From contig NZ_OZ245746.1 in assembly GCF_965227465.1 (NCBI RefSeq), forward strand, positions 1,658,365 through 1,722,364: a stretch of 64,000 bases of DNA, in the 5' to 3' direction. The position numbers and the translations under genes are program-made. Origin of the DNA: Ekhidna sp. (lineage in GTDB: Bacteria > Bacteroidota > Bacteroidia > Cytophagales > Cyclobacteriaceae). Below the pieces are notes generated by a model. That model ran no database searches, had not been told where the DNA came from, and was given only the letters and a program-made list of their open reading frames with translations. Every line of letters begins with the position of its first letter. Position 1 is the first letter of the stretch. Shown piece by piece: positions 45,020 to 60,138 of this stretch.

Positions 45020-45828
45020 TGGACGAACGAGAAAAAAAAGAAGAGAAGAATAAACGAATAGGATGGTTGACATCTCTGGGTGTTCAATTGGTGCTATTAA
45101 TTCTGTTCTACTTCATTGTAGCTTGGAGAGAACCATTTCCACCTATTCCGGAATATGGTATTGAGTTAGGCTTCACAACGTCCGCCGGAGCACCGGCAAC
45201 TGCTGCTCCAGCTGAGGAAGCTCCTGAAGTGGAAGAAATCACGGAAGAAGAGATAGATGATTCTGAGAATGAAGCCACTGAAGAACAAACAGAAGCGGAG
45301 GCTCAGGAAGTGACCGAACAACCGATTCCTAAGTCGAAAGTCGAAAGCCCGGTACAAGTAGAAGAAACTAAAACTGAAGAAATTACTCCCACGGAAGAGG
45401 TAGTGGAAGAAGTCGTCGATAGCCGGGCTGTTATGACTCCCTCTGAAACTGACGCTGAAGAAACCAGTGAAAATCCTTCTGAGGGTAAGGAAGAAGAAAA
45501 AGAGCTTGATCAGCGTGCAATCTATGGCAGTCAGGGAACCAATACCGGAGATGCGGAGGGGGCCAACCTTGCGCTATCAGGCTGGGTTTGGGATTTTAAG
45601 CCTAAACCAAATGACACTTCAGATGAGTCGGGCAAAATCGTTTATAAGATTGTCGTAGATCAGGATGGCTACCTCATTAAAATTGAAACGGTCACGTCTA
45701 CTGTTTCACCATCCGTGGAAAGAAAATACAGACAGGCAGTGGAGAAGCTTACCTTCAGTAAAACAGCGGATTATAAAACTGCTCCTGTTTCAACAGGAAC
45801 CATCACGTTTATCATTAAATCTATATGA
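45016..45828 (+). CDS. TonB-like energy transducer
   Basis: N-terminal TM, E/P-rich spacer, C-terminal GKIVYKIVVDQDG domain; follows exbBD. Confidence 0.75.
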   Translation: MMDEREKKEEKNKRIGWLTSLGVQLVLLILFYFIVAWREPFPPIPEYGIELGFTTSAGAPATAAPAEEAPEVEEITEEEIDDSENEATEEQTEAEAQEVTEQPIPKSKVESPVQVEETKTEEITPTEEVVEEVVDSRAVMTPSETDAEETSENPSEGKEEEKELDQRAIYGSQGTNTGDAEGANLALSGWVWDFKPKPNDTSDESGKIVYKIVVDQDGYLIKIETVTSTVSPSVERKYRQAVEKLTFSKTADYKTAPVSTGTITFIIKSI

Positions 45829-47042
45829 CGTACAAAGAGACACTCGAGTACCTCTATACTCGATTGCCTATGTATCAACGAGTGGGAAAAAAGGCCTATA
45901 AAGCAGACCTTACAAATACCATCAAACTGATGGAACACCTGGATAACCCACATAAAAAATTTAAAAGTGTACATATCGCGGGTACCAACGGAAAAGGAAC
46001 AAGTGCTCATGGGATAGCTGCTATTTTACAAACTGCTGGATACAAAGTGGGGCTTTATACTTCACCTCACTTAAAGAAGTTCACAGAGAGAATCAAAATA
46101 AGCGGAATTGAGGTTTCTGAGGAATTTGTGATTGATTTTGTTGGCCGAATCAAATCTACAATTGAGGATATTCAACCATCATTTTTTGAGATAACAGTTG
46201 CTATGGCCTTTGATTATTTTCAAAGAGAGCAAGTGGATATAGCAGTAATTGAAACCGGGTTAGGGGGTCGACTTGACAGTACCAATGTAATCACTCCAGA
46301 GGTCTGTCTGATAACCAATATTGGTTATGATCACATGGATATATTGGGAGATACGCTTGAAAAAATAGCTGCTGAGAAAGCTGGAATTATAAAAAAACAT
46401 GTGCCGGTAGTTATTGGAGAGACACTACCTGAAACGGAACCCATATTTAAACAAATCTCAGAAAACAACGAGGCTGTTCTGATAAAAGCAGGTAAGTCAA
46501 ACATCAAACCTCAGGGAATGGTGCCTGATTACTTTTTGAAAAATCTAGGCGGGATCGAATCAGTCATTAACGAACTTATAAGATTGGGCTGGGATGTATC
46601 TTCAAACCATATATCAGCAGGAATTGAGAATATAAATGAACTAACGGGGTTGAAAGGCAGACTTCAGATTATAGAGAAAGACCCACTACTGATAGCTGAC
46701 GTCAGTCACAATGCAGATGGTTTAAATATTCTACTTAAACAAGTTGCTGACATTTGTCAAAATAACCTTCATTTGATCTTTGGAACCGTCAAAGACAAAG
46801 ATCTAAAATCAATCTTCTCGATCATTCCTAAAGATGCCAAAATCTACTGGACACAATCTAATGTGCCAAGAACGCTTCCAGTTGAAGAATTAGCGATTCA
46901 GGGAGTTATGAATGGCATTGAAGCTAAATGCTTTAAGAATGTGAATGAAGCCATTCAAGAGGCAAAAGTGCAAGCCCATCCGGATGATTTAATACTTGTA
47001 ACCGGTAGTACGTTTGTTGTGGCAGAGGTTGATGGGTTATAG
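45825..47042 (+). CDS. folC: Folylpolyglutamate synthase/dihydrofolate synthase
   Basis: HIAGTNGKGT, GLYTSPHL, ETGLGGRLDSTN, IAAEKAGIIK, D.SHN and TGSTFVV. Confidence 0.95.
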   Translation: MTYKETLEYLYTRLPMYQRVGKKAYKADLTNTIKLMEHLDNPHKKFKSVHIAGTNGKGTSAHGIAAILQTAGYKVGLYTSPHLKKFTERIKISGIEVSEEFVIDFVGRIKSTIEDIQPSFFEITVAMAFDYFQREQVDIAVIETGLGGRLDSTNVITPEVCLITNIGYDHMDILGDTLEKIAAEKAGIIKKHVPVVIGETLPETEPIFKQISENNEAVLIKAGKSNIKPQGMVPDYFLKNLGGIESVINELIRLGWDVSSNHISAGIENINELTGLKGRLQIIEKDPLLIADVSHNADGLNILLKQVADICQNNLHLIFGTVKDKDLKSIFSIIPKDAKIYWTQSNVPRTLPVEELAIQGVMNGIEAKCFKNVNEAIQEAKVQAHPDDLILVTGSTFVVAEVDGL

Positions 47043-47050
47043 GGCTGCTA

Positions 47051-47242
47051 TTAATTTACTACTCCTATATCATCTTCTATTTTTCTAAGTGAAAATTTAG
47101 AAACTCCATCTTTTAATTCCTTGGAAGTCGAATTAAGCCAATTAAACTTTTTCATATAGTTTTCCATTCCTGCGGATAGCTCATTAGCAGATGAGGAAAT
47201 TTCTTCAGATCCAGTAGCAGCTTGTTCAGCAGTTGTTTCGAC
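47051..47242 (-). pseudogene. Orphan 3' tail of a methyl-accepting chemotaxis protein gene
   Basis: Startless frame VETTAEQAATGSEEISSSANELSAGMENYMKKFNWLNSTSKELKDGVSKFSLRKIEDDIGVVN*, matching the MCP C-terminal methylation helix. Not in the ORF track. Confidence 0.7.
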
Positions 47243-50200
47243 TTACAAACCAATGATCACCGTGAACTAGCTCTTGCCTAAACGCCGATGCGGTGAGGTC
47301 CTTCCATGGCTCCATTTCTTCGGGGAGTGTTACCTCGTCCTCAATAGCAGAAAATACCGTGATTGGAAATTCGAATTTATGATCATCCTCATAATCGTAA
47401 TCCATTAATAAAGCCATATCCAGTCGCAGGATCGGAAGGATCTTTTTAACGTACTCCAGATCATCGATGTAAGTCATAAGACCAATGAGTTTCTGCTCCG
47501 AATTAGAAGAGATCGCAGATTGTTTCAGAACGTCTCTATTTTTCCAGGTCACAGTCATTTGAGGTGCCATGGTAGCAGAGCTCCAGAAATGAACAGGTCG
47601 CTTTCCATGATTCTTTCTAAGCCGTCTCGCCAATTCAAAAGCAATAATACCACCAAAACTGTGTCCGTATATGGCAAAATCACCATCCAATAAAGGAAGT
47701 ATGGCTGCCTCAAGATCATCAAGTAGTTTTTGAAAATCAGTATATAGCTTTTCATCTTTTCTGTTTTCACGACCAGGAAGTTGTACCGCGTAGACATCCG
47801 TTCCTTTGGGTGCTTCGTACATAAAGTCGTTAAACATGGATGCTCCAGCTCCCATGCTGTGAAACATGAATAGCTTCAGTTTACCTGATACATCATTTTC
47901 AGCTTTTCTATGCACGAACCAGTTATTGATCACCTCAATGTCTTCTTCGGTAGAAATACCTGATTCATCCTGATTGCTCTTTTCATCACTTGCAGAAGAA
48001 AGGAAGCTTTCCATGATGTGCTCAGCAATCTCTCTGATGCTCGGACCTTTAGAAAGTCTCATCAAAGGATAGTTGAACTCAAGCTTTTGTAGAATCCAGT
48101 TCCGCAACTGGTTCATCATGAGAGAATCTAAACCTATAGCAGAAATGGATTTGTTTTCGTCTAACTTATCCGGAGTTGTTCCTAAAATCCGGGCCAGGGC
48201 TTCCTTCAGATTTAGCGCCAGCATCCCCTTACCTTCTCCATTGGCTGCAAGCAGTTTGTCCTTTAGAGATTCTGCGCCGGCTCTCGATATATTTGCTGAC
48301 AGGCTTTTATCCGTAAGCAAGTGCCTAAAACGAGCATCGTTTTTAAGGTGGCTAAAGAACTCCCCAAAACGTCCCCAATCAATGTTAGCTGCCATTCGAA
48401 CCCGATCGCCTTCCAAGAGAATTCGCTCAATTTTGCTGGTTACCTGATTGATGGTCATTGGAATCCAGCCTTGATTTTCCAATACGTTTAAGACATTACC
48501 TCCTTCTTTAGACATGCCTGCAAACTGTCCCAATACGCCTAGATTGATGCTCTGAGCGTGCAATCCTTTGCTCTTACGATAAGCTACCAGCTTGTCCAGA
48601 AAGTTATTGGCAGCTGAATAATTTGCTTGCCCTGGCAAACCGAAAACCGCGGAAATAGATGAAAGCGATAAAAAGAAATCTAAATCTATTTGATCTGTTG
48701 CCTTATGCAAGTTCCAGGCACCAATCGCTTTGGGTTTAAACACCTTTGAGAAAAGCTCACGACTCATTCTCTGAATGGTCGCATCTTCGAGCACCGCTGC
48801 ACCATGGATGATGCCGGCTAGAGGAGCAATTTTATTCACTCTATTGACCATATCATTAACTTCTTTTTCTGAAGAAAGATCTAGCTTTTCTATCATGATA
48901 TTGGCGCCATGCTTATGCATTTGCTCAATCCACCCTTTATCATAAGCTGACTTAGGACCGCTTCTGCTAACCAGCGCAAGATGCTTGGCACCATTATCTA
49001 CCATCCATTTGGCCAGCTCAATTCCTAATCCGCTGGCGCCCCCTGTGATGATATAGCTACCTTCTGAGGAGAATCGAAGCTTTTCTGGCGAAAGCGCTTT
49101 GACTTCCTGATCCTCCATCGAAAGCACTACTTTGCCAATGTGTTTGCCTTTGGCAAAATGATCGATAGCATCACCAATATCATTGATTTTGAACGACGTA
49201 TAAGGATGTGGTTGTACTTTCTTTTCATAAAACAACTCCATCACATTTTGGAGTAACCTGGTGGCCTTATCCGGGCGCTGAGCCATCAACCTGTCAATGT
49301 CCACAGCGAAGTAGGAGAGGTTATCCCCAAATCGTTTCAGATGAAGACTCATGTCCTCATAAATGTCTGCTTTCCCAATTTCCAGGAAGCGACCAAATGG
49401 CTTTAAGCATTTGATACTTTGGATGATTGCTTTACCACTTAGAGAGTTTAGTACGAGATCTACACCCTTTCCATTGGTATCTTTCATGACCTCATCATAA
49501 AAGCTCAAAGAGCGACTATCATATGTGTGTTTTACCCCCAGTTCCCTTAGAAAATCCCGCTTTTCCTTGGTACCCGCTGTAGCATAAATTTTCGCACCAT
49601 AATGTTTGGCTATAGCAATTGCTGCAAGACCTACACCACCTGTAGCTGAATGAATGAGGACTGATTCGCCTCGCTCCATTTGCCCTAAATTCAGCAGGCA
49701 GTGATAAACTGTAAGGTAAACCAGAGTGATCGTGGCTGCTTCTTCAAAAGAGATATGATCCGGAAGTTTGGCTACACAATGGCTTGGAGTCACAACTTTC
49801 CCGGCAAAGGAGTTTGGTGAAAAGGCTAAAACCCGATCCCCTTTTTGTACATGTTTCACAGATTTACCAACTCTTGAAACAACCCCACTGCTCTCCAAAC
49901 CTAATTGAGATCCTACAAGTCCACCAATTACACTCTCTTCTGACAGTAGCCCATTCAGGTTAAGAACATCTTTGAAGTTAAGTCCTGCAGCTTTTACATC
50001 AATTTCTACCTCTTTATCACCAATCTCAAAAGGGACTATTTGTCTAAACCCTATCGAGTCTAGGATGCCTTCCTCTTTTAGAATTGTCTGATAGTAACTA
50101 CCGCTGGCGGGTAGAGAGATGGCTGCTTCCTCCTGCGCAGATTCCCTTGATACCGAATCAAGTCTTTTCACATAGATTTTTTCACCTCTCAATGCAATAT

Positions 50201-53200
50201 CACTTTCATCCCCTCCATTAGAGATAGAGGAAATAAGTTGGGCTAATGAATGGATTTCGGACTCACTCGTTCTATCTCCCAAATCAACGAGTTTTATCTT
50301 GGCTATTGGAAACTCATTGACGGTGACTCTGCTCAGGCCGTAGGTGACAGAAGCCATCATATTTACCACTGAATCTTGTGGGGTTATCAGGTCTGCTTGT
50401 TCATTGATGACCCAAATAGTTGACTGTATTTCCAGTTCTATGATTGCGTTAAATACATTCAAGAGTTTCCAGGATAGCTCCTGAGTTTCATCAGCTATGC
50501 CTGATTCATCAGTGTATTGAAGCGGAAGGTTAATGACGACATTTTGAAGTGTTTCATGCTTATTCACGACTTTTTGAAGTGTTTGCCTGACTTCTTCACG
50601 ATCTGAATAATCAGGTATGTCGGCACGAACCACTGAGCTCCCAAGCTCCTGCAACTTTTCATCAAGCGCACTAAAGTTGGCGCCTTTTTCTTCAAGCACA
50701 AGGATCTTTGAATTAGCTGGTTTATGTACCATTTCTTCAGATTCAACCCACTGGTATTCATAAGTTCCTGCGTATGTCATGTCCTCGTCCGATGCTCTTG
50801 ATCCTTTAATGTACTTGCAGTTCAATCCTTGAATTTCAGCTACTGTGTTACCATCTTTATCAATGATCCAAAAGTCTCCTTTCAAATAGTCTGAGCTCGC
50901 TTCGGCTACTTTTACATAGCTGTATACCGTTTCAGATTTTGGTTTATTATGGAATTTGTATCTATCAATATGGATTGGGAGGTAAATACCTCGTTCTTCA
51001 TCTTCAGTATTCATTTTAGCAGCGAAAATGGTATGCAGACAGGCGTCTAAAATGCAAGGATGCAGGTTGTAATCATTGATTTCATACTTCAATGATTCGT
51101 GCACCTCTATTTTACTCAGAATCTCATCCTTTACAACCCATAAGTTTTTAATTGCTCTGAAAGTGGCACCATATTGTAACCCGCCTTTTTTCAATTCCAG
51201 GTACATAGGCTGTACAGGTAGTCGGTCGTTGACTCGTTCTTTGATTTCATTTAAATCGACAGACCGAGATGTAAATGTGTCTCCGAGTGTGTTCATTTTC
51301 CCGTTTGAGTGTTTGACCCATTCGGCATCAGGATTATTTGTGTCACGACTTAAGATCCAATAGCTTTCTTCATCTGAATAAACTTCTAATTTAACCTCAT
51401 ACCGTTCTCCATCCTCGGGTAGAAACAGCGCCGATTCAAAGTTTACATCTTCAAGAAAACCAAAATCTTTTCCGAAAGCATGTTTTGCCGCCGCTGTTGC
51501 AATTTCCAGATGTCCCGTGGCAGGGAATATGATCCCGTCGTTGACTTTATGATCTTCTATATACGGGTCAGTACGTCTGTCCAGTAGGACGTTAAAATTA
51601 TAGGACGTATCATGCAATCCTGATCGATCGTACCCTGTAACCAATGGATGGGGTTTCTTTTCCAATCGTCTTTCTCTATGGACTTTTGGCTCGAACCAGA
51701 ATGACTTACGATCCCAGGTATACCTGGGTAAATCAAATAGGTGATTGCTCTCCGGATAAATGGACTCCCAGCTAAGGTCCAATCCTAGTGTATACATGGC
51801 TCCCAATGTTTGTAGGAACCGAAGTTTCTCAGGCTCTTTTCTTTTGATGGAAGGGAAGATGTTTGCACTGGCATTTCGTTTCTCGAATAGTTCTTCAGCT
51901 CCAGCAGAAAGGGCAGGATGGGGCCCAATCTCTATAAACAAGTCATATCCATCATTTAACATTTCCTCCAATGCATTAGCGAAGTAAACCGTTTCACGTA
52001 CATTATCGTACCAGTATTCGCTCACTAAATGAGAACCATCTTCTTTTCTTCCTGTTACCGTTGAATAGAGATCAATTTTAGCTTTATCAGGTATGAGTCC
52101 TTCAAGCGATCCAATTAGCTCATCTTTAAGGGGCTCCATATGATGTGAGTGAAAGGGGACAGTAACTCTCAAAAATTTATTGAAGATATCCTTTGCTTCG
52201 AGCTCAGCTGAAATATCTGCTAATGGCTCTTCATCTCCTGAGAGCACCACCATATTGGAACCGTTGACTGCTCCAATTGAAACTACATCGTCCACATCCT
52301 TGATGAGCTCTCTAGCTTCATCAAGAGAGACGCTTACGGCTAGCATTTTCCCTTTTCCGGTCGCCGCATGTTGTCCCCGGCTCCTATGAAAAATAACATG
52401 GACAGCCTGTTCGAGTGTGAGAGCTCCTGCGGTGTAAGCGGCAGCCACTTCACCGATGGAATGACCAATTACACCTTGCGGTTCGACACCATGTTTTTTC
52501 CATAATTCTACTAGGGCTATTTGTATCGCCATGATCGCAGGTTGAGCAATCCGGGTGTCATTGACACTGGTATTTTTCTCGTCTTTATTCATCTCCTCCA
52601 ACAAAGACCATCCTGCTATCTGTTTAAAATGACCTTCTATTTCCTGAATGATTGATCGGAATAAAGGTTCTTTAGCAATAAGTTCCTGACCCATGGCATA
52701 CCATTGAGGTCCCTGGCCAGTGAATATAAAAGCCAACTTATTTGGGGGGCTGTCTACCTCATTGACTTCCACGCCTGCCAGGACATTACCTTCCAGGTAA
52801 GCATCAATCTTATGGGTAATGTCTTTTTTATCATTCCCTGCAATTGCTATCCTGTATCTTAAATCGGATCGGTGTTTTCCAGCGTTGTAACAAATATCTC
52901 GAAGGACGTGCTCTGATTCATTGATGTAAGATTTATACTCAAGAAGCAGGGTTTTCAACGCTTCCTGAGTCATGGCACTTGTATGAAAGAGGTAGAGGTT
53001 TTCTTTCACTGGCCTATTGAGCTCTCTTTCATTAGGTATGTATTCTTCCAAAACCAGATGAGCATTCGTTCCGCCTGCGCCAAATGAATTGACTCCACCA
53101 ATTCTGGGACTGGTATCTGATTGCTCTGGCCAGTCAGTATTTTCATTAATGACTTTGAGCTTCCATCCCTCAAGATCAATCTTTGGATTTACCTTATTAA

Positions 53201-54338
53201 AATGAAGATTGCCTGGAATTTTCTTGTGTTTCATAGAAAGGGCCAGCTTGATCAATCCGGCCACACCTGCTGCACCTTCCAAATGGCCAATATTACTTTT
53301 TACTGACCCAATCATGACAGGATTTTTTCGCTTATCAGTTGCAAAAACATTTGAAAATGATTTGGTTTCGATTGGGTCACCGATAGGAGTACCAGTACCA
53401 TGAGCTTCGATATACTGAAGTCGATCCGGATGTATTCCAGCCTGTAAATAGGCATCTTTTAGCATTTTCGTTTGTGAGCTTTCGCTAGGAACAGTGAAAC
53501 CTTCGGAGGTGTGCCCATCAGAGTTGCAGACTGTGGCTTTGATAATTCCATAGATCTTATTGTTGTCCTTCAATGCCTGATCGAGTTTCTTGAGATAAAC
53601 GACACCAATACCTTCACTTCTGACATAGCCATTCGCTTTCTCGTCAAAAGCTTTACAATATCCATCCGGACTTAGGAAATTGCCTTTGGACATCATAATT
53701 GTGGATTCAGGATTGATGATGAGGTTAGCACCACCTGCAAATGCAGCTTCAGCGTTACCACTCCATATGCTTTGACATGCGAGATGAACAGCCACCAACG
53801 ATCCAGAACAGGCGGTATCAATAGATACGCTAGGCCCTTTGAGATTGTAGAAGTAAGAGATCCGATTGGCTATAGCTGTGAGCGAAGAGCCCATTGGCGT
53901 GTGGGGAGAAATATCGTATCTGCTTTCCTGACTTACCTGAATGTCCCAATAATCATTAGTGAAGGTGCTCATGAATACGGCAGTATCTGTATTTCTCAAT
54001 TGATTGAGCTTGTCGCCGGCATCTTCCATAGATTCAAAGGTGGTTTGTAGTAGCAATCTTTGCTGTGGATCAATCCGCTCTGCTTCTTTGGGAAAGATTC
54101 TGAAGAATTCATTATCGAACTCATCAATATTTTCAATAAATCCACCTTTGTTGTTTTTAATTTTTCCTGCTTTGTTAGGGTTCGGGTCGTAATATTCTTC
54201 TACGTTCCATCGATCCCCTGGAACCTCCATCACCCCGTTCACTTCATTTAGAAGTTGTGACCAAAAAGAATCTGAACTATTAATGTTACCTGGTGCGTGA
54301 CATCCAATTCCGACGATTGCGATCTTAGATTTTTCCAT
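47226..54338 (-). CDS. Single-module fully reducing type I PKS/FAS (KS-AT-DH-pseudoKR-ER-KR-ACP-TE)
   Basis: KS: DTACSGS, EAHGTGT, NIGHLE. AT: GHSIGE, VPFHS. DH: DHKVNDGIIFP, LDACLH. ER: LIHSATGGVGLAA. KR: TGGASGLG, LED, GQANYSAAN. ACP: GLDSL. TE: GHSFGG, GDHWF. Confidence 0.95.
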   Translation of the reverse strand: MEKSKIAIVGIGCHAPGNINSSDSFWSQLLNEVNGVMEVPGDRWNVEEYYDPNPNKAGKIKNNKGGFIENIDEFDNEFFRIFPKEAERIDPQQRLLLQTTFESMEDAGDKLNQLRNTDTAVFMSTFTNDYWDIQVSQESRYDISPHTPMGSSLTAIANRISYFYNLKGPSVSIDTACSGSLVAVHLACQSIWSGNAEAAFAGGANLIINPESTIMMSKGNFLSPDGYCKAFDEKANGYVRSEGIGVVYLKKLDQALKDNNKIYGIIKATVCNSDGHTSEGFTVPSESSQTKMLKDAYLQAGIHPDRLQYIEAHGTGTPIGDPIETKSFSNVFATDKRKNPVMIGSVKSNIGHLEGAAGVAGLIKLALSMKHKKIPGNLHFNKVNPKIDLEGWKLKVINENTDWPEQSDTSPRIGGVNSFGAGGTNAHLVLEEYIPNERELNRPVKENLYLFHTSAMTQEALKTLLLEYKSYINESEHVLRDICYNAGKHRSDLRYRIAIAGNDKKDITHKIDAYLEGNVLAGVEVNEVDSPPNKLAFIFTGQGPQWYAMGQELIAKEPLFRSIIQEIEGHFKQIAGWSLLEEMNKDEKNTSVNDTRIAQPAIMAIQIALVELWKKHGVEPQGVIGHSIGEVAAAYTAGALTLEQAVHVIFHRSRGQHAATGKGKMLAVSVSLDEARELIKDVDDVVSIGAVNGSNMVVLSGDEEPLADISAELEAKDIFNKFLRVTVPFHSHHMEPLKDELIGSLEGLIPDKAKIDLYSTVTGRKEDGSHLVSEYWYDNVRETVYFANALEEMLNDGYDLFIEIGPHPALSAGAEELFEKRNASANIFPSIKRKEPEKLRFLQTLGAMYTLGLDLSWESIYPESNHLFDLPRYTWDRKSFWFEPKVHRERRLEKKPHPLVTGYDRSGLHDTSYNFNVLLDRRTDPYIEDHKVNDGIIFPATGHLEIATAAAKHAFGKDFGFLEDVNFESALFLPEDGERYEVKLEVYSDEESYWILSRDTNNPDAEWVKHSNGKMNTLGDTFTSRSVDLNEIKERVNDRLPVQPMYLELKKGGLQYGATFRAIKNLWVVKDEILSKIEVHESLKYEINDYNLHPCILDACLHTIFAAKMNTEDEERGIYLPIHIDRYKFHNKPKSETVYSYVKVAEASSDYLKGDFWIIDKDGNTVAEIQGLNCKYIKGSRASDEDMTYAGTYEYQWVESEEMVHKPANSKILVLEEKGANFSALDEKLQELGSSVVRADIPDYSDREEVRQTLQKVVNKHETLQNVVINLPLQYTDESGIADETQELSWKLLNVFNAIIELEIQSTIWVINEQADLITPQDSVVNMMASVTYGLSRVTVNEFPIAKIKLVDLGDRTSESEIHSLAQLISSISNGGDESDIALRGEKIYVKRLDSVSRESAQEEAAISLPASGSYYQTILKEEGILDSIGFRQIVPFEIGDKEVEIDVKAAGLNFKDVLNLNGLLSEESVIGGLVGSQLGLESSGVVSRVGKSVKHVQKGDRVLAFSPNSFAGKVVTPSHCVAKLPDHISFEEAATITLVYLTVYHCLLNLGQMERGESVLIHSATGGVGLAAIAIAKHYGAKIYATAGTKEKRDFLRELGVKHTYDSRSLSFYDEVMKDTNGKGVDLVLNSLSGKAIIQSIKCLKPFGRFLEIGKADIYEDMSLHLKRFGDNLSYFAVDIDRLMAQRPDKATRLLQNVMELFYEKKVQPHPYTSFKINDIGDAIDHFAKGKHIGKVVLSMEDQEVKALSPEKLRFSSEGSYIITGGASGLGIELAKWMVDNGAKHLALVSRSGPKSAYDKGWIEQMHKHGANIMIEKLDLSSEKEVNDMVNRVNKIAPLAGIIHGAAVLEDATIQRMSRELFSKVFKPKAIGAWNLHKATDQIDLDFFLSLSSISAVFGLPGQANYSAANNFLDKLVAYRKSKGLHAQSINLGVLGQFAGMSKEGGNVLNVLENQGWIPMTINQVTSKIERILLEGDRVRMAANIDWGRFGEFFSHLKNDARFRHLLTDKSLSANISRAGAESLKDKLLAANGEGKGMLALNLKEALARILGTTPDKLDENKSISAIGLDSLMMNQLRNWILQKLEFNYPLMRLSKGPSIREIAEHIMESFLSSASDEKSNQDESGISTEEDIEVINNWFVHRKAENDVSGKLKLFMFHSMGAGASMFNDFMYEAPKGTDVYAVQLPGRENRKDEKLYTDFQKLLDDLEAAILPLLDGDFAIYGHSFGGIIAFELARRLRKNHGKRPVHFWSSATMAPQMTVTWKNRDVLKQSAISSNSEQKLIGLMTYIDDLEYVKKILPILRLDMALLMDYDYEDDHKFEFPITVFSAIEDEVTLPEEMEPWKDLTASAFRQELVHGDHWFVSRNNC

Positions 54339-54945
54339 ATTTTTAACTGGTTTTTAATGATATTGACAAATAATTGTTTTATTAGATGAATGCTAATAAG
54401 TACAATTATTAATTTAAATAAGAAAGTGAGTAGATATCTAAAGTGAATTAATAAGTATTTTGTTTAAATTATTGAAAATCCTATATATAAAAAGGACGCA
54501 ACATTTTACAAAATAAATACCTGGTAAGACTTAGTAAGTGTGAGTAGTTCATAGCTATATCAATTATATGTTCATTATTATATCAAATAACGCCGTTATT
54601 TAATATATGTTTTAACATTATGCATTTTAAATCATTTAAATGCACTTAATGGGAGTATATATACATAATTGATAACGTATAATATGCAGAATTTAAACAA
54701 TATTTTATTGGCGTTATGTAAATACTCTATCAGATGCTTAAGTGTTCCTTACATCGTATCTAAATACTTAATAACCTTTTATCAAGAATGTTGAGGCATT
54801 TTATTTTAATTACTTGAATACGTTATTAATAATAAAGTATATTACGTGAAAATATATAACTAAAAATCAAAAAAATATTGTAGTGAATTATTAATCTTAT
54901 AAGAGAATAATAATATATAACTAAAAACGCTAAATACAAAATATT
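54339..54945. promoter_or_regulatory. 607-bp very AT-rich divergent regulatory region
   Basis: No ORF; visibly far more AT-rich than the flanking genes; longest intergenic stretch in the window. Confidence 0.65.
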
Positions 54946-55587
54946 ATGAAAAAACATTCTTTGTTATTTACTATTGTCCTACTGATAGGTATTAGCTTAG
55001 AAGCTCAGGAGTCAATTGATCAGAAATGGTACCTTCAACCAAGCGCATTCTTTTTCGATTTAAGTAAGGCATCCACTGAAACTAACATTGGGGGGAGCGA
55101 CCTACCAGGAGAAAATATCTCATTTTCTAATTCGACAGTTCCAGGTGTTGGTATTGGATATTTTGTAAATACTAATATTTCTATTCATACAGTCATTGCA
55201 TACCCTCCATCTACTACTGCCGAAGGCAAAAACAATTTGGAAGGTCAAACAGCAGGGGAGGTTACCTATGCTCCGTTTGCAATCTCAGGTCTTTATCATT
55301 ATCGATTGGGCGACTTTCAACCATTTCTGGGCGGAGGATTTGCGTATGCTGTCATCCTTGATGCAGAAGACGGAGATGTTTCTGACATTGAAGCAGATAA
55401 TGCGTTTGGGTTTATCATTCGAGGGGGATTTGATTATATGGTTAATAACTCCTGGGGAGCTTCGCTTTCTGTAAATAGACTATTTATTGATACGGAGATT
55501 ACAGGAGATGCGGGAGGGGCACCCGCCAAAGTAGATGCTTCATTAAATCCATGGGTATATTCCATAGGAGTTATTTATCGCAGATAG
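54946..55587 (+). CDS. OmpW/AlkL-family outer-membrane channel
   Basis: Signal peptide; GYF..TNIS, YPP, QPFLGGG..Y, GFDY and LNPWVYSIGVIYR, all OmpW-like. Confidence 0.85.
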   Translation: MKKHSLLFTIVLLIGISLEAQESIDQKWYLQPSAFFFDLSKASTETNIGGSDLPGENISFSNSTVPGVGIGYFVNTNISIHTVIAYPPSTTAEGKNNLEGQTAGEVTYAPFAISGLYHYRLGDFQPFLGGGFAYAVILDAEDGDVSDIEADNAFGFIIRGGFDYMVNNSWGASLSVNRLFIDTEITGDAGGAPAKVDASLNPWVYSIGVIYRR

Positions 55588-55652
55588 CCATTTTGCATTA
55601 ACTAATTGGTAGCAAATGATGTATAATTAATGTTGGGTGTCTTCAAACAATC

Positions 55653-55901
55653 ATGACTGACAACATTGTTAACTTCACTAAAGCAGGAGCATATGAAATG
55701 ATGGATCAGGCCAATGACTGTGACTCCATCGATGATTTTTTCGAAGCAAGTTGGTGGGGAGTTGGCGAGCACTATATGGGTTTGGTTTACGATGATGGTG
55801 CTACCGTAGTAGATATAAATGAACTAACGGAAAATAGCTTTATAGCTACCGAATATCGTGAACAGGAAACGATCAATTACCGCTATGAAAGGTTAGATTA
55901 A
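55653..55901 (+). pseudogene. Probable 5'-truncated lipocalin-like gene
   Basis: C...DNIVNFTKAGAY...DC resembles Bacteroidetes lipocalin-like lipoproteins. There is no signal peptide, and an in-frame stop lies at 55617-55619. Confidence 0.4.
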
Positions 55902-55908
55902 AGTAATA

Positions 55909-55946
55909 AATGATGCTGCACTCACAGCGGTAGCATCATTTTTTTT
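55909..55946 (+). terminator. Rho-independent terminator
   Basis: AATGATGCT...AGCATCATT followed by a T-run. Confidence 0.65.
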
Positions 55947-55951
55947 ACAAA

Positions 55952-56509
55952 CTAATCCTCCCCTAAATGCAGGTGATGCACATGCTCATCAATCAAGTCG
56001 ATCTGCTTGGTAATCTCCTTAACATACTTCTTTAACTCACTTTCCAGCACTTTTACTTCTTCCTTGTATTCAGAACCTTTTTCAGCTCCCAGGTTTTTCT
56101 CAATGTCGTTGTAAGTATTGCATTCCTGATGAATAAATCTCCTGAATGACTTAGTTGTATACTCACTCTCCAATCTCTCAATATCATCAAGTGTAGCTTT
56201 GGCTTCCTTGTCTCCATTTTTTGAGAATTTTCTGGTCACAATTCCGTAAAGAAGTGTATCGTAGTGATGAATTTCATCCAGCATACCAATGATTTGTTTT
56301 CTATAGACCGATTGGCCACAAAAACTCCCCAAGCCTTCATAAGTTTGCAGCTTCTCGGCTTCATTGTCCCATCGGAGGGTTAAATCATCAATGGCTTTAA
56401 CGACTTCAGCTTCATCTTCCTGTGCGAAAGAAGCGAAAGAAAAAAGGCAAAATAGCAGGAGGATAGTAGATTTCATTGTTGTGAGTATTTGGTTGAACTG
56501 ATAGTACAT
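55952..56509 (-). CDS. Secreted helical hypothetical protein (likely start 56476, MKSTIL)
   Basis: Signal peptide MKSTILLLFCLFSFASFAQ; two Cys; helical. Confidence 0.75.
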   Translation of the reverse strand: MYYQFNQILTTMKSTILLLFCLFSFASFAQEDEAEVVKAIDDLTLRWDNEAEKLQTYEGLGSFCGQSVYRKQIIGMLDEIHHYDTLLYGIVTRKFSKNGDKEAKATLDDIERLESEYTTKSFRRFIHQECNTYNDIEKNLGAEKGSEYKEEVKVLESELKKYVKEITKQIDLIDEHVHHLHLGED

Positions 56510-57165: not shown

Positions 57166-57188
57166 AATAGGGGCTTATGCCCCTATTT
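57165..57188. terminator. Bidirectional terminator between trmB and SulP
   Basis: AAATAGGGG-cttatg-CCCCTATTT. Confidence 0.75.
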
Positions 57189-58901
57189 CTACTCAACAAA
57201 CGTATCATCGTATGCTTCCGGATGTGAAATGGAAACATCATCTCCAGGTTCAATGCTTGAATGGTGACTTACAATCTGACCGTCTTTGATAACGAATGAA
57301 AACCTCAGATCATTGGTTTCTTCAAACCCTTCGGATTTCCATTTGATCTTATACTGTCCACTGTCTACCTTAAAACCGTCAATCTTTTGAGATATAACCT
57401 GATAAGGTGCGACCATGAGATCATGTTTTTCAAAAAGGTCTCGATATAAGTCTTTGATTTGATCTTTGTTTCTTCTTATCCTGGTAGAAAAGGCAGGGAT
57501 CATCATCGCATCGTCGCTATAAACCTTCATTAGTGCATTTATATCATGACTGTTAATTGCCTTCACCCATTTATCGAGGGTAGGAACGCTTGCTTCTGCA
57601 ATCATATCTTCTCTTTCAATTCTGGCTTTATCAGCGTCTGGCTTGAAGGTATCTTTGAGAAGCTCGATGACTTCCTGAGTGGATTTTCCTGTTCTTCTCA
57701 TGAAAATATATTGAATAAAAGCATGGGCAAAAAGAAGTAGCAAAAGGCCTTCGAAGATTCCCAATTCAAAAACCAGAAAGCCACAAATACCCGCCATAAT
57801 TAATGCATATCTGCCTTCCGATCGGACATTTGCGATATTGGCAATCATTTTCCACCCTGAATATACCATAATGATACCTAATGCATATTCTGGTGTATGC
57901 TCAAGAATGATTGGAAATAGTACAACCAATAGAATTACCAGTGATGTAAAAACATTGGATAGTTTGGTTACAGCACCAGCTACTGTGTTGGTGGTACTCT
58001 TTGCTAAGCCGTCCAGATTGGTCATGCCACCAAAGAAAGTAGCTCCCATATTGGCAATCCAGATTGCGAGCAAGCTATTATTAGAGTTAGCCTTTCTATT
58101 GAAGGGATCTATTTTCTCAATTGCCACATTGCTCATCACTTGCTCAATTACATCGATGGTTCCAAGCATCATTGCGAAACCGATCATTTTCAAGATCAGG
58201 AAAAAGATCTCCTGCTCATTAAACCCTGTAAAATGCGGCACAGGTAATGCAAGATGGAAGGGAACAGAATCAATCGAGATCATTGGTAGTGGCATGAAAA
58301 AGCTTAATACAAAGCTTGTTGCCATGATAACAAAATAAGGTAGCGCCGGCATCTTCTTTTTGTAGTACTTGTATAGAAGTACGAAAGACACAAATGATAC
58401 CAGGCTAAGCAGGATAATCACTTCTCTCTCGAAATTGAGCCAGGTCGCTGTTTCATGTTCAATGTCGTAGAGAAATGGAACAAACTTGAGAGCTATTTTT
58501 AAACCTACCCCAGCCAATAAACCTTCGACCAGATAGTGAGGTACTATTCTTAAAATGTATCGTTCCAGTCGATATTTCCAGACTACTGCTTGAAACAAAG
58601 CTGTAAGTAGGATCACAAATGGCATATTTTCCATTCCAAATGTGTGTACACCCAGCGCCAATGCGGGTGCTAATCCGGCTGCCACTCCTGGCATACCTGT
58701 ATAGTTACCAGGCTTAAATAAATAGGTTATAAAGCTTATTATCCCTGCAAAAATGACGGTATATAAACCTGTCATAATTGGGTATTCGGACATTAAACAA
58801 ATGCCAACTGTTAGTGGGACTGCCATGACACCTGCTACAGTTCCTGCAAGTGCGTCTCTTTTTATATGCTTTAAAGATTCGATTAGACGTTGCTTGATCA
58901 T
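57189..58901 (-). CDS. SulP/SLC26 anion transporter lacking STAS, fused to a C-terminal NTF2-fold iota-carbonic-anhydrase-like domain
   Basis: SulP: D.LAG.VAG..AVPL..G, G.AAGL, FFGG...KS..N..AGA.TKLS. C-terminal domain: W.KA...D...Y.DDA..IP.FS..IR...DSG.Y...RFSFV..DG.IVSHHSS.EP. Confidence 0.8.
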   Translation of the reverse strand: MIKQRLIESLKHIKRDALAGTVAGVMAVPLTVGICLMSEYPIMTGLYTVIFAGIISFITYLFKPGNYTGMPGVAAGLAPALALGVHTFGMENMPFVILLTALFQAVVWKYRLERYILRIVPHYLVEGLLAGVGLKIALKFVPFLYDIEHETATWLNFEREVIILLSLVSFVSFVLLYKYYKKKMPALPYFVIMATSFVLSFFMPLPMISIDSVPFHLALPVPHFTGFNEQEIFFLILKMIGFAMMLGTIDVIEQVMSNVAIEKIDPFNRKANSNNSLLAIWIANMGATFFGGMTNLDGLAKSTTNTVAGAVTKLSNVFTSLVILLVVLFPIILEHTPEYALGIIMVYSGWKMIANIANVRSEGRYALIMAGICGFLVFELGIFEGLLLLLFAHAFIQYIFMRRTGKSTQEVIELLKDTFKPDADKARIEREDMIAEASVPTLDKWVKAINSHDINALMKVYSDDAMMIPAFSTRIRRNKDQIKDLYRDLFEKHDLMVAPYQVISQKIDGFKVDSGQYKIKWKSEGFEETNDLRFSFVIKDGQIVSHHSSIEPGDDVSISHPEAYDDTFVE

Positions 58902-59018
58902 CTTATTTTAGTTTGAAGTTGAGTTAAATACATTGCTCAACCTGAATTAATAAATTGGGATTTTGCCTGAAAAATCAGGTCTAATTGAGCCTTGATAGAC
59001 TCAGACTTAAGAATAAGA

Positions 59019-59366
59019 TTATCCTAGGTGGATTTTAAGACAACAGTGTTTGAGGAATAATGGAACGTTACTTCTTCTTATTAAGGAATAGTGTCCGGTA
59101 ATTCCTTGATATTTAAAGCTTGTAAAATGACGTAACTGATAGCAAATCTCATTGGGGATGAAGTCATTGCCACCTGCTGAAAATTGAATCCAATCGCTTT
59201 TTTCGGCACTTTCTTTGAGTTCTTCACGATCAACTTCCCGACTCTCAACGAGCTCTTCCTTTTCAAAATAAAAGTCCCTGGTATCAATAAGCGTCATTGC
59301 TCCAAGGAGAAGCAGTGACGTTATGAGTATAATGGATTTGCTACGAATCACGGAGCAAAAGAACAA
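59019..59366 (-). CDS. Small hypothetical protein upstream of SulP; start uncertain
   Basis: Hydrophobic N-terminus, acidic stretch and a C-terminal PLFLKHCCLKI, resembling small Bacteroidetes proteins that precede transporter genes. Confidence 0.45.
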   Translation of the reverse strand: MFFCSVIRSKSIILITSLLLLGAMTLIDTRDFYFEKEELVESREVDREELKESAEKSDWIQFSAGGNDFIPNEICYQLRHFTSFKYQGITGHYSLIRRSNVPLFLKHCCLKIHLG

Positions 59367-59406
59367 GAGATTAGATTTAAAAAATAGGACATGAGAATTG
59401 TCAAAA

Positions 59407-59422
59407 TGTGATAAATGTTACA
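59407..59422. promoter_or_regulatory. CRP/FNR-like operator
   Basis: TGTGA-TAAATG-TTACA, one mismatch from TGTGA-N6-TCACA, between the divergent crp-like gene and the SulP unit. Confidence 0.55.
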
Positions 59423-59451
59423 TTTTACAAAAACTTAAATCACCCGATTGA

Positions 59452-60138
59452 ATGAAAGTAGACATTAAGAAGTTTGATTTTGAGAGTAATAGAATTCTCT
59501 CATCACTGTCAAAAAGCGAGCAGGAGCTTTTCATTGCTCATGGTGATACTTTGATATTTAAGCGGAATAAGCTAGTTTTTTATGAGGGAGGAATTCCAAC
59601 AGGAGTTTTTTTAATCGAAAACGGTAGAGCTAAAATCTATAAAACAGGTTTGGATGGAAAAGATCAGATTTTTTATATCTACAAGACTGGCGATCTGTTA
59701 GGTTATCATGCGCTTCTTTGTAATGAACATTACGAAGACTCTTGTGAAGCTCTGGAGGATTGCAAAATCCTTTTTATCAGTAAACTAAATTTTAACAGTC
59801 TCATTAAAAAGATACCTCACTTGAGCCAGTTACTCATTCAAAATATGAGTCATGAATTTGGGGTATTGGTCAATACAATCACCATACTTGCACAAAAACC
59901 GTTAAGAGAACGATTAGCACTTTACCTGCTTATTTTGAATAAAAAATATGTCGAGCAGGGCGGGGACATAATGCTTCCACGTGAAGACATGGCTAATATT
60001 ATTGGAACTGCACGTGAAAGTCTTGGAAGACTGCTCAAAGAATTTAAAGAAGAAAAACTAATTGAAGTTGACAATAAGATTATTCGAATTAATAATCACG
60101 GCAAGCTATTGAAGATCGCGAGTTCAGTTTATAATTAG
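59452..60138 (+). CDS. Crp/Fnr family transcriptional regulator
   Basis: cNMP-binding-like barrel (GVFLIENGRAKIYK...GDLLG), RERLALYL and HTH REDMANIIGTARESLGRLL. Confidence 0.92.
   Translation: MKVDIKKFDFESNRILSSLSKSEQELFIAHGDTLIFKRNKLVFYEGGIPTGVFLIENGRAKIYKTGLDGKDQIFYIYKTGDLLGYHALLCNEHYEDSCEALEDCKILFISKLNFNSLIKKIPHLSQLLIQNMSHEFGVLVNTITILAQKPLRERLALYLLILNKKYVEQGGDIMLPREDMANIIGTARESLGRLLKEFKEEKLIEVDNKIIRINNHGKLLKIASSVYN

What the first reader, a model, noticed from the sequence alone, without database searches (positions are those of the whole stretch)
47226..54338. Stand-alone animal-FAS-like megasynthase in a Bacteroidetes genome
Seen: one 2370-aa module with all reductive domains and intact catalytic motifs, plus a terminal GrsT-like TE. 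No tailoring enzymes, acyl-CoA ligase or PPTase are nearby. Known: a single KS-AT-DH-ER-KR-ACP-TE chain is the layout of animal FAS and of iterative highly reducing PKSs; Bacteroidetes normally use type II FAS. The AT has VPFH rather than HAFH or YASH, so extender choice cannot be read directly. Inference: a horizontally acquired iterative synthase for an unknown long-chain or branched lipid.
Basis: partly seen in the sequence, partly recalled or inferred. Interest (0 to 1): 0.75.

Follow-up and report, generated by a model that had tools for sequence, protein, structure and literature searches.

The report
Orphan lipid synthase, freshly damaged copy
This is a real one-module, fully reducing polyketide synthase from an unstudied Bacteroidota family that travels with its own activating enzyme. 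In this Ekhidna genome it sits on an acquired island, and a recent 2.5-kb deletion has removed the activating enzyme, a sensor gene and the synthase's last helix, so this copy is probably crippled.

Summary
The ORF at 47226-54338 (-) is real. It encodes 2370 aa in the order KS-AT-DH-(psiKR)-ER-KR-ACP-TE, and every catalytic motif is present.

It is not animal-FAS-like beyond domain order:
- It aligns colinearly with mycocerosic acid synthase (977 bits, against 656 for pig FAS).
- It has no pseudo-methyltransferase.
- Its TE is a fused type-II thioesterase of the RifR/TesA/TE2 kind.

It belongs to an orphan family of same-length proteins, patchy in Cytophagales and other Bacteroidota, with relatives in Yersinia and Planctomycetota. 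In six Bacteroidota genera an Sfp-type PPTase gene follows directly.

The lack of a nearby PPTase here comes from a deletion. A metagenome contig is 100% identical on both flanks but holds 2467 extra bases: the last 20 PKS codons, a PPTase gene and most of a chemoreceptor gene. Three other public runs carry only the intact form. The likely source run carries both, with the deleted form about four-fold more abundant.

Two congeners have folC abutting the right-flank gene, and none of 24 congeners has an orthologue, so 47043-55951 is an acquired island.

The product is unknown. AT motifs favour malonyl units and a straight saturated chain. Earlier follow-ups in this scan reported the same family on other genomes. 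Ordinary kind, orphan family, useful natural knock-out.

The parts
47226..54338 (-). Type I PKS ORF of 2370 aa (deletion allele; the intact allele is 2388 aa)
53199..54329 (-). KS domain (Cys177, His313, His352)
   Evidence: Pfam PF00109/PF02801; motifs
51798..52730 (-). AT domain (GHSIGE, DTRIAQP, VPFH: malonyl-like motifs)
50805..51614 (-). DH domain (His930, Asp1098)
50070..50804 (-). DH-to-ER spacer, read as a structural pseudo-KR. It is too short for the pseudo-methyltransferase of animal FAS.
   Evidence: colinear alignment to MAS 9d2z, query 5-1954 against chain 7-1961
49116..50069 (-). ER domain (GGVGLAA NADPH site)
48531..49061 (-). KR domain (GGASGLG, LED, Tyr1907)
48015..48209 (-). 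ACP (GLDSL, Ser2072)
47229..47876 (-). Fused type-II-like thioesterase (Ser2227, Asp2334, His2362). It is cut 8 residues after the His, so the terminal helix is missing.
47231..47233 (.). Deletion junction. 2467 bp of the intact allele are replaced by one filler base at 47232.
47051..47231 (-). Remnant (last 59 codons plus stop) of a 583-aa methyl-accepting chemotaxis protein gene, out of frame with the PKS
47043..55951 (.). Lineage-specific island (8.9 kb now, 11.4 kb before the deletion) inserted between the convergent stop codons of folC and a conserved 185-aa gene
54339..54945 (.). 607-bp AT-rich (GC 0.21) divergent intergenic region between the PKS and OmpW; presumed promoter region
54946..55587 (+). 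OmpW-family barrel gene. It is on the island, but was not found next to the PKS in the other genera examined.
55653..55901 (+). 82-aa hypothetical gene, the last gene of the island, followed by a hairpin and T-run
45825..47042 (+). folC (Mur-ligase family), left flank, conserved in congeners
55952..56509 (-). Conserved 185-aa gene, right flank. It abuts folC in congeners G008 and G016.

Best explanation
The gene is a member of an orphan Bacteroidota family of stand-alone, MAS-like, fully reducing single-module type I PKSs with a fused type-II-like thioesterase. The family normally travels as a two-gene PKS plus Sfp-type PPTase cassette. In the Ekhidna/Marinoscillum/Reichenbachiella clade a chemoreceptor (MCP) gene travels with it.

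Shown:
- In this Ekhidna lineage the cassette arrived on an 11.4-kb island inserted between folC and a conserved gene.
- In the genome of the window, a 2467-bp deletion removed the last 20 PKS codons (the terminal TE helix), the whole PPTase gene and about 90% of the MCP gene.
- The intact allele exists elsewhere, and as a minority in the likely source sample.

Inferred mechanism of the intact enzyme:
- The dedicated PPTase makes holo-ACP.
- The KS is primed by a short or FAS-II-derived acyl group.
- The AT loads malonyl units.
- KR, DH and ER fully reduce each round, and the module works iteratively.
- The TE hydrolyses a straight saturated fatty acyl chain of unknown length.

Inferred for this allele: activity is lost or badly impaired, because the TE lacks its closing helix and the cognate PPTase is gone.
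For: - Architecture and motifs.
- MAS is the best solved relative and is colinear (977 bits, against 656 for pig FAS).
- TE family: RifR, RedJ-like, TesA and human TE2 match at E 1e-31 to 1e-40, against E above 1e-6 for DEBS/Pik-type TEs.
- Family: more than 80 same-length, full-coverage homologues at 42-76% identity. Tree.
- The PPTase gene sits directly downstream in Ekhidna (intact allele), Marinoscillum, Reichenbachiella, Flammeovirga, Aureibacter and Saccharicrinis.
- Deletion: L015 is 100% identical over 9044 and 7594 bp on either side of 2467 extra bp.
- Public runs: X2, X5 and X10 carry only the intact form. X1 carries junction words at depth about 3600 and an insert contig at depth 826.
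- Tail: the motif GDHWF[VL]SRNK[DE]FI recurs across the family's C-termini (the GDHWF part is invariant). The AF2 model (pLDDT 92) puts residues 2366-2387 in one confident helix.
- Island: folC and the 185-aa gene are 3 bp apart in G008 and G016. OmpW was not found in 5 congeners. No orthologue in 24 congeners.
- Malonyl-like AT motifs: read against the published HAFH/YASH, GHS[VIL]GE/GHSQGE and upstream-motif rules (my own knowledge).
Against: - No product, expression or activity data exist for any family member in the literature I could search.
- Iteration cannot be read from sequence. The 49%-identical Yersinia homologue is the second module behind an AprA-like loading PKS.
- By overall score the AT is closest to methylmalonyl-specific DEBS ATs.
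- The genome keeps an unlinked, genus-conserved Sfp-like PPTase that might still activate the ACP.
- A TE that keeps Ser, Asp and His might retain some activity.
- Composition gives no sign of foreign origin (GC 0.404 against 0.396).
- In Marinoscillum the PKS lies about 22 kb from folC-trmB, which leaves some room for old synteny plus losses.
Confidence: 0.62

Rival explanations
1. One reading: a functional, self-sufficient FAS-like synthase that makes a specialised lipid in this strain. It would be served in trans by a host PPTase, and the short C-terminus would be tolerated.
For: All catalytic motifs are intact, and the PKS body has no other change against the intact allele. A core Sfp-like PPTase is present. 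The deleted form is the majority in run X1, so it carries no heavy cost.
Against: In all six Bacteroidota genera examined the cassette carries its own PPTase. That PPTase shows no detectable similarity to the core one. The lost tail is conserved across the family and forms the closing helix of the hydrolase fold. Being the majority fits loss of a dispensable gene equally well.
Confidence: 0.2
2. A MAS-like branched-lipid synthase: the AT takes methylmalonyl-CoA and the product is a multi-methyl-branched acid.
For: MAS is the best full-length match. The top AT matches are methylmalonyl-specific DEBS ATs.
Against: The three positions that usually separate the classes read malonyl-like: GHSIGE rather than GHSQGE, VPFH with Phe rather than YASH, and DTRIAQP rather than RVDVVQ. 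Relatives that do branch carry a separate C-methyltransferase insert (2795-2825 aa forms).
Confidence: 0.13
3. A non-iterative elongating or terminal module: one C2 extension of an acyl chain handed over from FAS II or from a partner that is absent here.
For: The Yersinia kristensenii homologue (49% identity) follows an AprA-like loading PKS in the same operon. The window's protein has no loading domain.
Against: In Bacteroidota the only conserved partner is the PPTase, in varied genomic contexts. The best-matching solved relative, MAS, is iterative by my own knowledge, not tested here.
Confidence: 0.15
4. The deletion is an assembly artefact of the window's genome, and the organism carries the intact locus.
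For: The same run also holds the intact insert as a contig. No listed X1 contig has 31 or more letters on both sides of the junction.
Against: An X1 contig starts 30 bases before the junction, includes the filler base and runs on into the PKS, at word depth about 3600 against 826 for the insert contig. Junction-spanning 31-mers were therefore read many times.
Confidence: 0.03

Closest known systems
Mycocerosic acid synthase and MAS-like PKSs of mycobacteria (PDB 9d2z, 9d2y, 5bp1, 5bp4; NCBIfam Pks2 model NF041183)
   Same: One polypeptide, KS-AT-DH-psiKR-ER-KR-ACP. It is colinear over residues 5-1954 (977 bits) and scores 1186 bits to the Pks2 model over 5-2110. MAS is a fully reducing, iterative, lipid-making enzyme (my own knowledge).
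   Different: The score is below the Pks2 family cut-off (2400). MAS has no TE and hands its product to an acyltransferase. MAS uses methylmalonyl-CoA, whereas the AT motifs here read malonyl-like. The phylum differs, and here a dedicated PPTase is the sole partner.
Animal type I fatty acid synthase (pig FAS 2vz8, human FAS 8vf7)
   Same: Same domain order including a C-terminal TE; a stand-alone iterative synthase.
   Different: Lower score (642-656 bits, in two pieces). There is no pseudo-methyltransferase between DH and ER. The TE belongs to the type-II family (RifR, TesA, human TE2); whether it resembles the FAS TE domain itself was not compared. The AT motifs differ.
Orphan 'Type I PKS' regions of Reichenbachiella, Marinoscillum and other Cytophagales (antiSMASH regions with no similar known cluster, PMC10752948)
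   Same: 66-76% identical, same length, same VPFHSHHM and GDHWF..SRNKDFI motifs, and the same PKS-PPTase(-MCP) neighbourhood.
   Different: Those copies are intact. The window's copy has lost its tail, its PPTase and its MCP gene. None has a known product.
Sponge-symbiont monomodular PKSs SupA and SwfA (PMC4245539)
   Same: Small single-module type I PKSs, proposed to make fatty-acid-like lipids (mid-chain-branched acids are proposed for Sup).
   Different: They are restricted to sponge microbiomes and are separate KS/AT clades according to that paper.
Stand-alone type II thioesterases (RifR 3fla, RedJ-like 3qmv, M. tuberculosis TesA 6fvj, human TE2 4xjv)
   Same: The TE domain aligns over its whole length, including the helix after the catalytic His (E 1e-31 to 1e-40).
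   Different: Here the TE is fused to the synthase as its only release domain, and in this allele it is truncated.

Membership tests
Type I PKS, fully reducing single module (MAS-like) | All of KS, AT, DH, ER, KR and ACP in one chain with their catalytic residues | tested here: met
Type I PKS, fully reducing single module (MAS-like) | Colinear with MAS, with no extra domain between DH and ER | tested here: met
   9d2z: query 5-1954 against chain 7-1961 in one stretch
Type I PKS, fully reducing single module (MAS-like) | Reaches the curated cut-off of a named mycobacterial equivalog (Pks2, 2400 bits) | tested here: not met
   1186 bits. It is a relative, not an equivalog.
Type I PKS, fully reducing single module (MAS-like) | Methylmalonyl-specific AT (GHSQGE, YASH) | tested here: not met
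   GHSIGE and VPFH
Type I PKS, fully reducing single module (MAS-like) | Iterative use of the single module | not testable with these tools
   Needs biochemistry
Animal FAS | Pseudo-methyltransferase between DH and ER | tested here: not met
   The spacer is about 245 residues and colinear with MAS. Pfam finds no methyltransferase.
Animal FAS | Closest relatives are animal FAS or AFPK | tested here: not met
   MAS 977 bits, modular PKSs about 690-800, pig FAS 656, EcPKS1 557
Orphan Bacteroidota PKS-PPTase cassette | Full-length homology of 45% or more, with the VPFHSHHM AT motif | tested here: met
Orphan Bacteroidota PKS-PPTase cassette | Conserved C-terminal helix GDHWF[VL]SRNK[DE]FI... | tested here: not met
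   The window ends ...SRNNC. It is met in the intact allele P0002.
Orphan Bacteroidota PKS-PPTase cassette | Sfp-type PPTase gene directly downstream | tested here: not met
   Deleted in the window. Present in L015 and in five other genera.
Type II thioesterase family (PF00975; RifR/TesA/TE2) | Ser-Asp-His triad in an alpha/beta hydrolase with lid, and a full-length profile match | tested here: met
   (the terminal helix is missing in this allele)

The most novel reading that the evidence does not exclude
PKS, PPTase and MCP form one 'make and sense' unit. The synthase would make a membrane or secreted lipid. The co-inherited chemoreceptor would sense it and feed into the genome's Che-like pathway. 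Its N-terminus is three hydrophobic segments with no periplasmic domain. On this reading the deletion allele is a non-producing, signal-blind variant that rose to about 80% in the source sample.
Probability: 0.1. Interest if true: 0.7.

Novelty: new member of a known kind. Interest (0 to 1): 0.4.

Why it matters
No product is known for this family, although it recurs across marine Cytophagales and related phyla. antiSMASH surveys flag it as a type I PKS region with no similar known cluster.

This locus supplies something the other copies do not: a natural, otherwise isogenic pair. The intact and the 2.5-kb-deleted alleles are 100% identical on both flanks and appear to coexist in one sample. 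Comparing the lipids of the two genotypes is a direct route to the product.

It also corrects the picture of a PPTase-less, animal-like FAS in a bacteroidete. The enzyme is a bacterial MAS-like PKS whose dedicated PPTase has just been lost.

Tried and rejected
- Literature: searches by domain string, Reichenbachiella, Ekhidna, MAS-like, FAS-like/monomodular and iterative/Bacteroidota found no characterised member.
- Fatty acids: published profiles of PKS-positive and PKS-negative Reichenbachiella strains show no consistent difference. R. ulvae has raised C16:0 and C18:0, but PKS-positive R. agarivorans does not.
- Composition: base composition and GC3 do not mark the island.
- Integration signature: no direct repeat of 8 bp or more at the island ends, and no integrase or tRNA.
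- OmpW as a partner: the idea that the divergent OmpW gene works with the PKS is rejected. OmpW was not found next to the PKS in any other genus examined.
- Frameshift: I first suspected a one-base frameshift at the C-terminus, because another frame reads on. That frame is just the MCP remnant. The real cause is the deletion.
- Solved PKS and FAS chains could not be fetched as sequences for a joint tree. I did not run antiSMASH or NaPDoS.
Full report
**Observation.** The minus-strand ORF at 47226-54338 encodes 2370 residues.
- Pfam places the domains in order: KS 4-380, AT 537-847, DH 909-1178, an ER of the zinc-dehydrogenase type at about 1424-1741, KR 1760-1936, ACP 2044-2108 and a PF00975 thioesterase at 2155-2365.
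- All expected catalytic motifs are present:
  - KS: DTACS, EAHGTGT, NIGH.
  - AT: GHSIGE, an Arg in FHRSR, VPFH.
  - DH: His930 and LDACLH.
  - ER: GGVGLAA.
  - KR: GGASGLG, LED, YSAAN.
  - ACP: GLDSL.
  - TE: GHSFGG and GDHWF.
- The neighbours are a TPR protein, ExbB/ExbD, folC, an OmpW-family barrel, trmB and a SulP transporter.

**What kind of enzyme.** Among solved structures the best match is mycocerosic acid synthase.
- MAS scores 977 bits in a single stretch, query 5-1954 against chain 7-1961. The two are colinear, with no room for an extra domain.
- Other scores: Dictyostelium Pks16 811 bits, modular PKSs about 690-800, pig FAS 656 in two pieces.
- NCBIfam gives 1186 bits to the mycobacterial Pks2 model, well under its 2400 cut-off.
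- A profile of the TE domain matches free-standing type II thioesterases (RifR, a RedJ-like TE, M. tuberculosis TesA, human TE2) at E 1e-31 to 1e-40. It matches DEBS/Pik-type TEs only at E above 1e-6.
- The resemblance to animal FAS is therefore one of domain order only. The protein is a bacterial MAS-like module with a type-II-like TE fused on.

**The family.** A search of 5.8 billion proteins returned more than 80 proteins of 2340-2490 residues that cover the whole query with the same Pfam set.
- About 76%: unnamed metagenome and genome proteins and a Flammeovirgaceae MAG. Marinoscillum pacificum is 75%.
- 66-72%: Reichenbachiella.
- 50-53%: Aureibacter, Flammeovirga, Fulvitalea (plasmid-borne), Persicobacter, Saccharicrinis.
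- 44-49%: Rhodocytophaga, Catalinimonas, Xanthocytophaga.
- 48-49%: Yersinia kristensenii and Y. pekkanenii (full coverage); Y. rohdei is 49% over 83% of the query.
- 42-43%: Planctomycetota.
- A KS-AT tree puts the Ekhidna protein inside the clade of these 76% relatives. That clade is sister to Reichenbachiella. A Yersinia-containing clade comes next, the remaining Bacteroidota beyond it, and Planctomycetota apart.
- The AT motif VPFHSHHM and the C-terminal motif GDHWF[VL]SRNK[DE]FI recur across the family.

**Conserved partner.**
- In Reichenbachiella ulvae, Flammeovirga pacifica, Aureibacter tunicatorum and Saccharicrinis aurantiacus, the gene directly downstream is a PPTase of about 230 aa. 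The wider context differs in each.
- Marinoscillum has the same arrangement.
- A Pirellulaceae copy has no adjacent PPTase.
- The Yersinia copy is the second PKS behind an AprA-like loading PKS.
- antiSMASH surveys of Reichenbachiella list the region as 'Type I PKS' with no similar known cluster.
- I found no paper that characterises a member.

**The deletion.** The 90% cluster that holds the window's protein is represented by a 2388-aa protein. It is identical to the window's up to residue 2368 and then continues with 20 more residues.
- Its contig (L015, an ENA metagenome, 61 kb) carries, after the PKS, a 227-aa Sfp-type PPTase (4PPT_N plus ACPS), a 583-aa MCP (HAMP plus MCPsignal) and then folC.
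- BLASTN shows L015 to be 100% identical to the window over 9044 bp on one side and 7594 bp on the other. The 2467 bp in between (L015 9045-11511) are absent from the window.
- At the junction the window has one filler base, at 47232.
- The deletion does three things:
  - It replaces the last 20 PKS residues with Asn-Cys-stop.
  - It removes the PPTase gene.
  - It leaves only the last 59 codons of the MCP gene (47051-47231, minus strand), out of frame.
- This confirms with data another note on this window (e1-5282565).

**Is the deletion real, and how old is it?** I laid Logan contigs of four public runs on 45800-48800.
- X2 (identical sequence), X5 (about 99%) and X10 (about 95%) carry only the intact form. 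X5 shows a contig with 2465 letters between the two sides. X2 and X10 show loose ends that read into the PKS tail and the MCP.
- X1 holds the window's words best and at very high depth, so it is probably the source sample.
- In X1 one contig starts 30 bases before the junction and runs through it into the PKS, at word depth about 3600.
- X1 also has a separate contig holding the 2465 missing letters, at depth 826.
- The junction therefore exists in reads. The intact allele is a minority of roughly one fifth in that sample, either as a variant of the same strain or as a very close co-resident strain.
- With 100% flank identity, the deletion is recent.

**Consequences for function.**
- The lost tail is conserved across the family.
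- It aligns to the helix that follows the catalytic His in RifR and 6vap.
- In an AF2 model of the intact TE (pLDDT 92, pTM 0.90), residues 217-238 of the domain form one confident helix. These correspond to protein residues 2366-2387. The window keeps only its first three residues.
- The genome still has an AcpS-like gene and an unlinked 213-aa Sfp-like PPTase.
- That PPTase is conserved at 77-85% in five congeners that lack the PKS. It has no detectable similarity to the lost one.
- It is unknown whether it can serve this ACP. Because the cassette carries its own PPTase in every Bacteroidota genus examined, host enzymes probably do not suffice. That is an inference.
- I put about two-thirds probability on this allele being inactive or badly impaired.

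**Horizontal acquisition.**
- None of 24 other species of the genus has an orthologue. The best same-genus hits are 31-35% identical PKSs whose matches lack the ER region.
- In a sample of 200 genomes of the GTDB family, about 12 carry a full-length colinear homologue at 45-53%.
- In congeners G008 and G016, folC and the conserved 185-aa gene are convergent and 3 bp apart. In the window, 8.9 kb lies exactly between their stop codons (47043-55951). That segment holds the MCP remnant, the PKS, OmpW and an 82-aa gene.
- The OmpW gene was not found in five congeners.
- PKS, PPTase and MCP are 75, 42 and 70% identical to those of Marinoscillum, and 67, 37 and 58% to those of Reichenbachiella.
- The flanking FolC and TrmB are only about 55 and 59% (Marinoscillum) and about 48 and 51% (Reichenbachiella) identical.
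- Against this: composition is unremarkable and there are no flanking repeats. In Marinoscillum the PKS lies about 22 kb from folC-trmB on the same contig.
- Gain in this lineage is the simpler reading, but old synteny with losses is not excluded.

**Likely chemistry (inferred).**
- No loading domain is present and the KS has its Cys. Priming must therefore come through the AT or directly from an acyl thioester.
- By overall score the AT is nearest to methylmalonyl-specific DEBS ATs (220 bits, against 178 for CurL).
- The three classic discriminating positions nevertheless read as in malonyl-specific ATs (the rules are from my own knowledge):
  - Ile in GHSxGE, where DEBS has Gln.
  - Phe in VPFH, where DEBS has Ser (YASH).
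  - DTRIAQP, where DEBS has RVDVVQP.
- The KR has the LED form of the LDD motif expected ahead of a DH.
- With KR, DH and ER all active and a hydrolytic TE, the expected product is a straight saturated fatty acid. Its chain length cannot be predicted.
- Iteration is assumed by analogy with MAS.
- Published whole-cell fatty-acid profiles of PKS-positive and PKS-negative Reichenbachiella strains show no consistent PKS-linked component. The product may be minor, conditional or exported.

**The chemoreceptor.**
- The MCP travels with the PKS in the three closest genera.
- It is nearly as conserved as the PKS.
- Its first 90 or so residues are three hydrophobic segments with no recognisable periplasmic domain.
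- The genome has three other MCP genes and three CheW genes about 120 kb away.
- A functional link between the lipid and the sensor is possible. It rests only on synteny among close relatives.

**Standing.**
- The kind of enzyme is known. The family is orphan.
- This scan has already reported the family on other genomes (e1-5226057, e1-2946430, and e1-2214616 for the methyltransferase-bearing variant).
- New here are the island boundaries and the recent deletion, which turn this locus into a natural knock-out with an intact sibling allele.

Noticed in passing
window 57166-60138: The SulP-SnoaL-like fusion, a 115-aa gene and a Crp-family regulator lie between trmB and the FMN-reductase gene. 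In congener G008 those two genes are adjacent (about 9 bp apart), so this is a second lineage-specific insert, 1.2 kb from the PKS island.
   Followed up: partly
L015 9941-11692 (intact allele); remnant at window 47051-47231: The island MCP has about 90 N-terminal residues made of three hydrophobic segments, with no periplasmic ligand-binding domain. It is 70% identical to its Marinoscillum counterpart, which is far more conserved than the PPTase between them (42%).
   Followed up: partly
L016 1187-15179 (Yersinia kristensenii): A 49%-identical homologue is the second PKS in an operon, behind a 2255-aa AprA-like loading PKS (AprA_N, methyltransferase, KS...) and a FabD-like gene. It sits next to chaperone-usher fimbrial genes. 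In the tree it groups with a clade of unnamed proteins that is sister to the Ekhidna/Reichenbachiella clade, which suggests transfer between phyla.
   Followed up: no
L004 (G027), and G102, G116: Same-order genomes carry forms of 2817-2825 aa that match the query in two blocks (about 4-1200 and 1280-2380) with an insert between DH and ER. Related 2789-2795-aa proteins have methyltransferase Pfam hits. This is probably a C-methylating variant of the family.
   Followed up: no
window 54339-54945: The 607-bp divergent intergenic region between the PKS and OmpW has GC 0.21, half the local average.
   Followed up: no
Marinoscillum pacificum contig NZ_JAMZMJ010000011.1: The PKS-PPTase-MCP trio lies about 22 kb from folC-trmB on the same contig. 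In Ekhidna the island sits directly beside folC. This is either coincidence or a trace of older synteny.
   Followed up: no
G000:C1:1841202-1852502: A chemosensory cluster (three CheW-domain genes and two MCP genes, with a third MCP at 2045 kb) in a gliding bacteroidete, about 120 kb from the window.
   Followed up: no
G017:C1:832878-837657 (L008): A congener has a different type I PKS (about 2006 aa, 31% identical, its match not covering the ER region), also followed by a PPTase-like gene.
   Followed up: no
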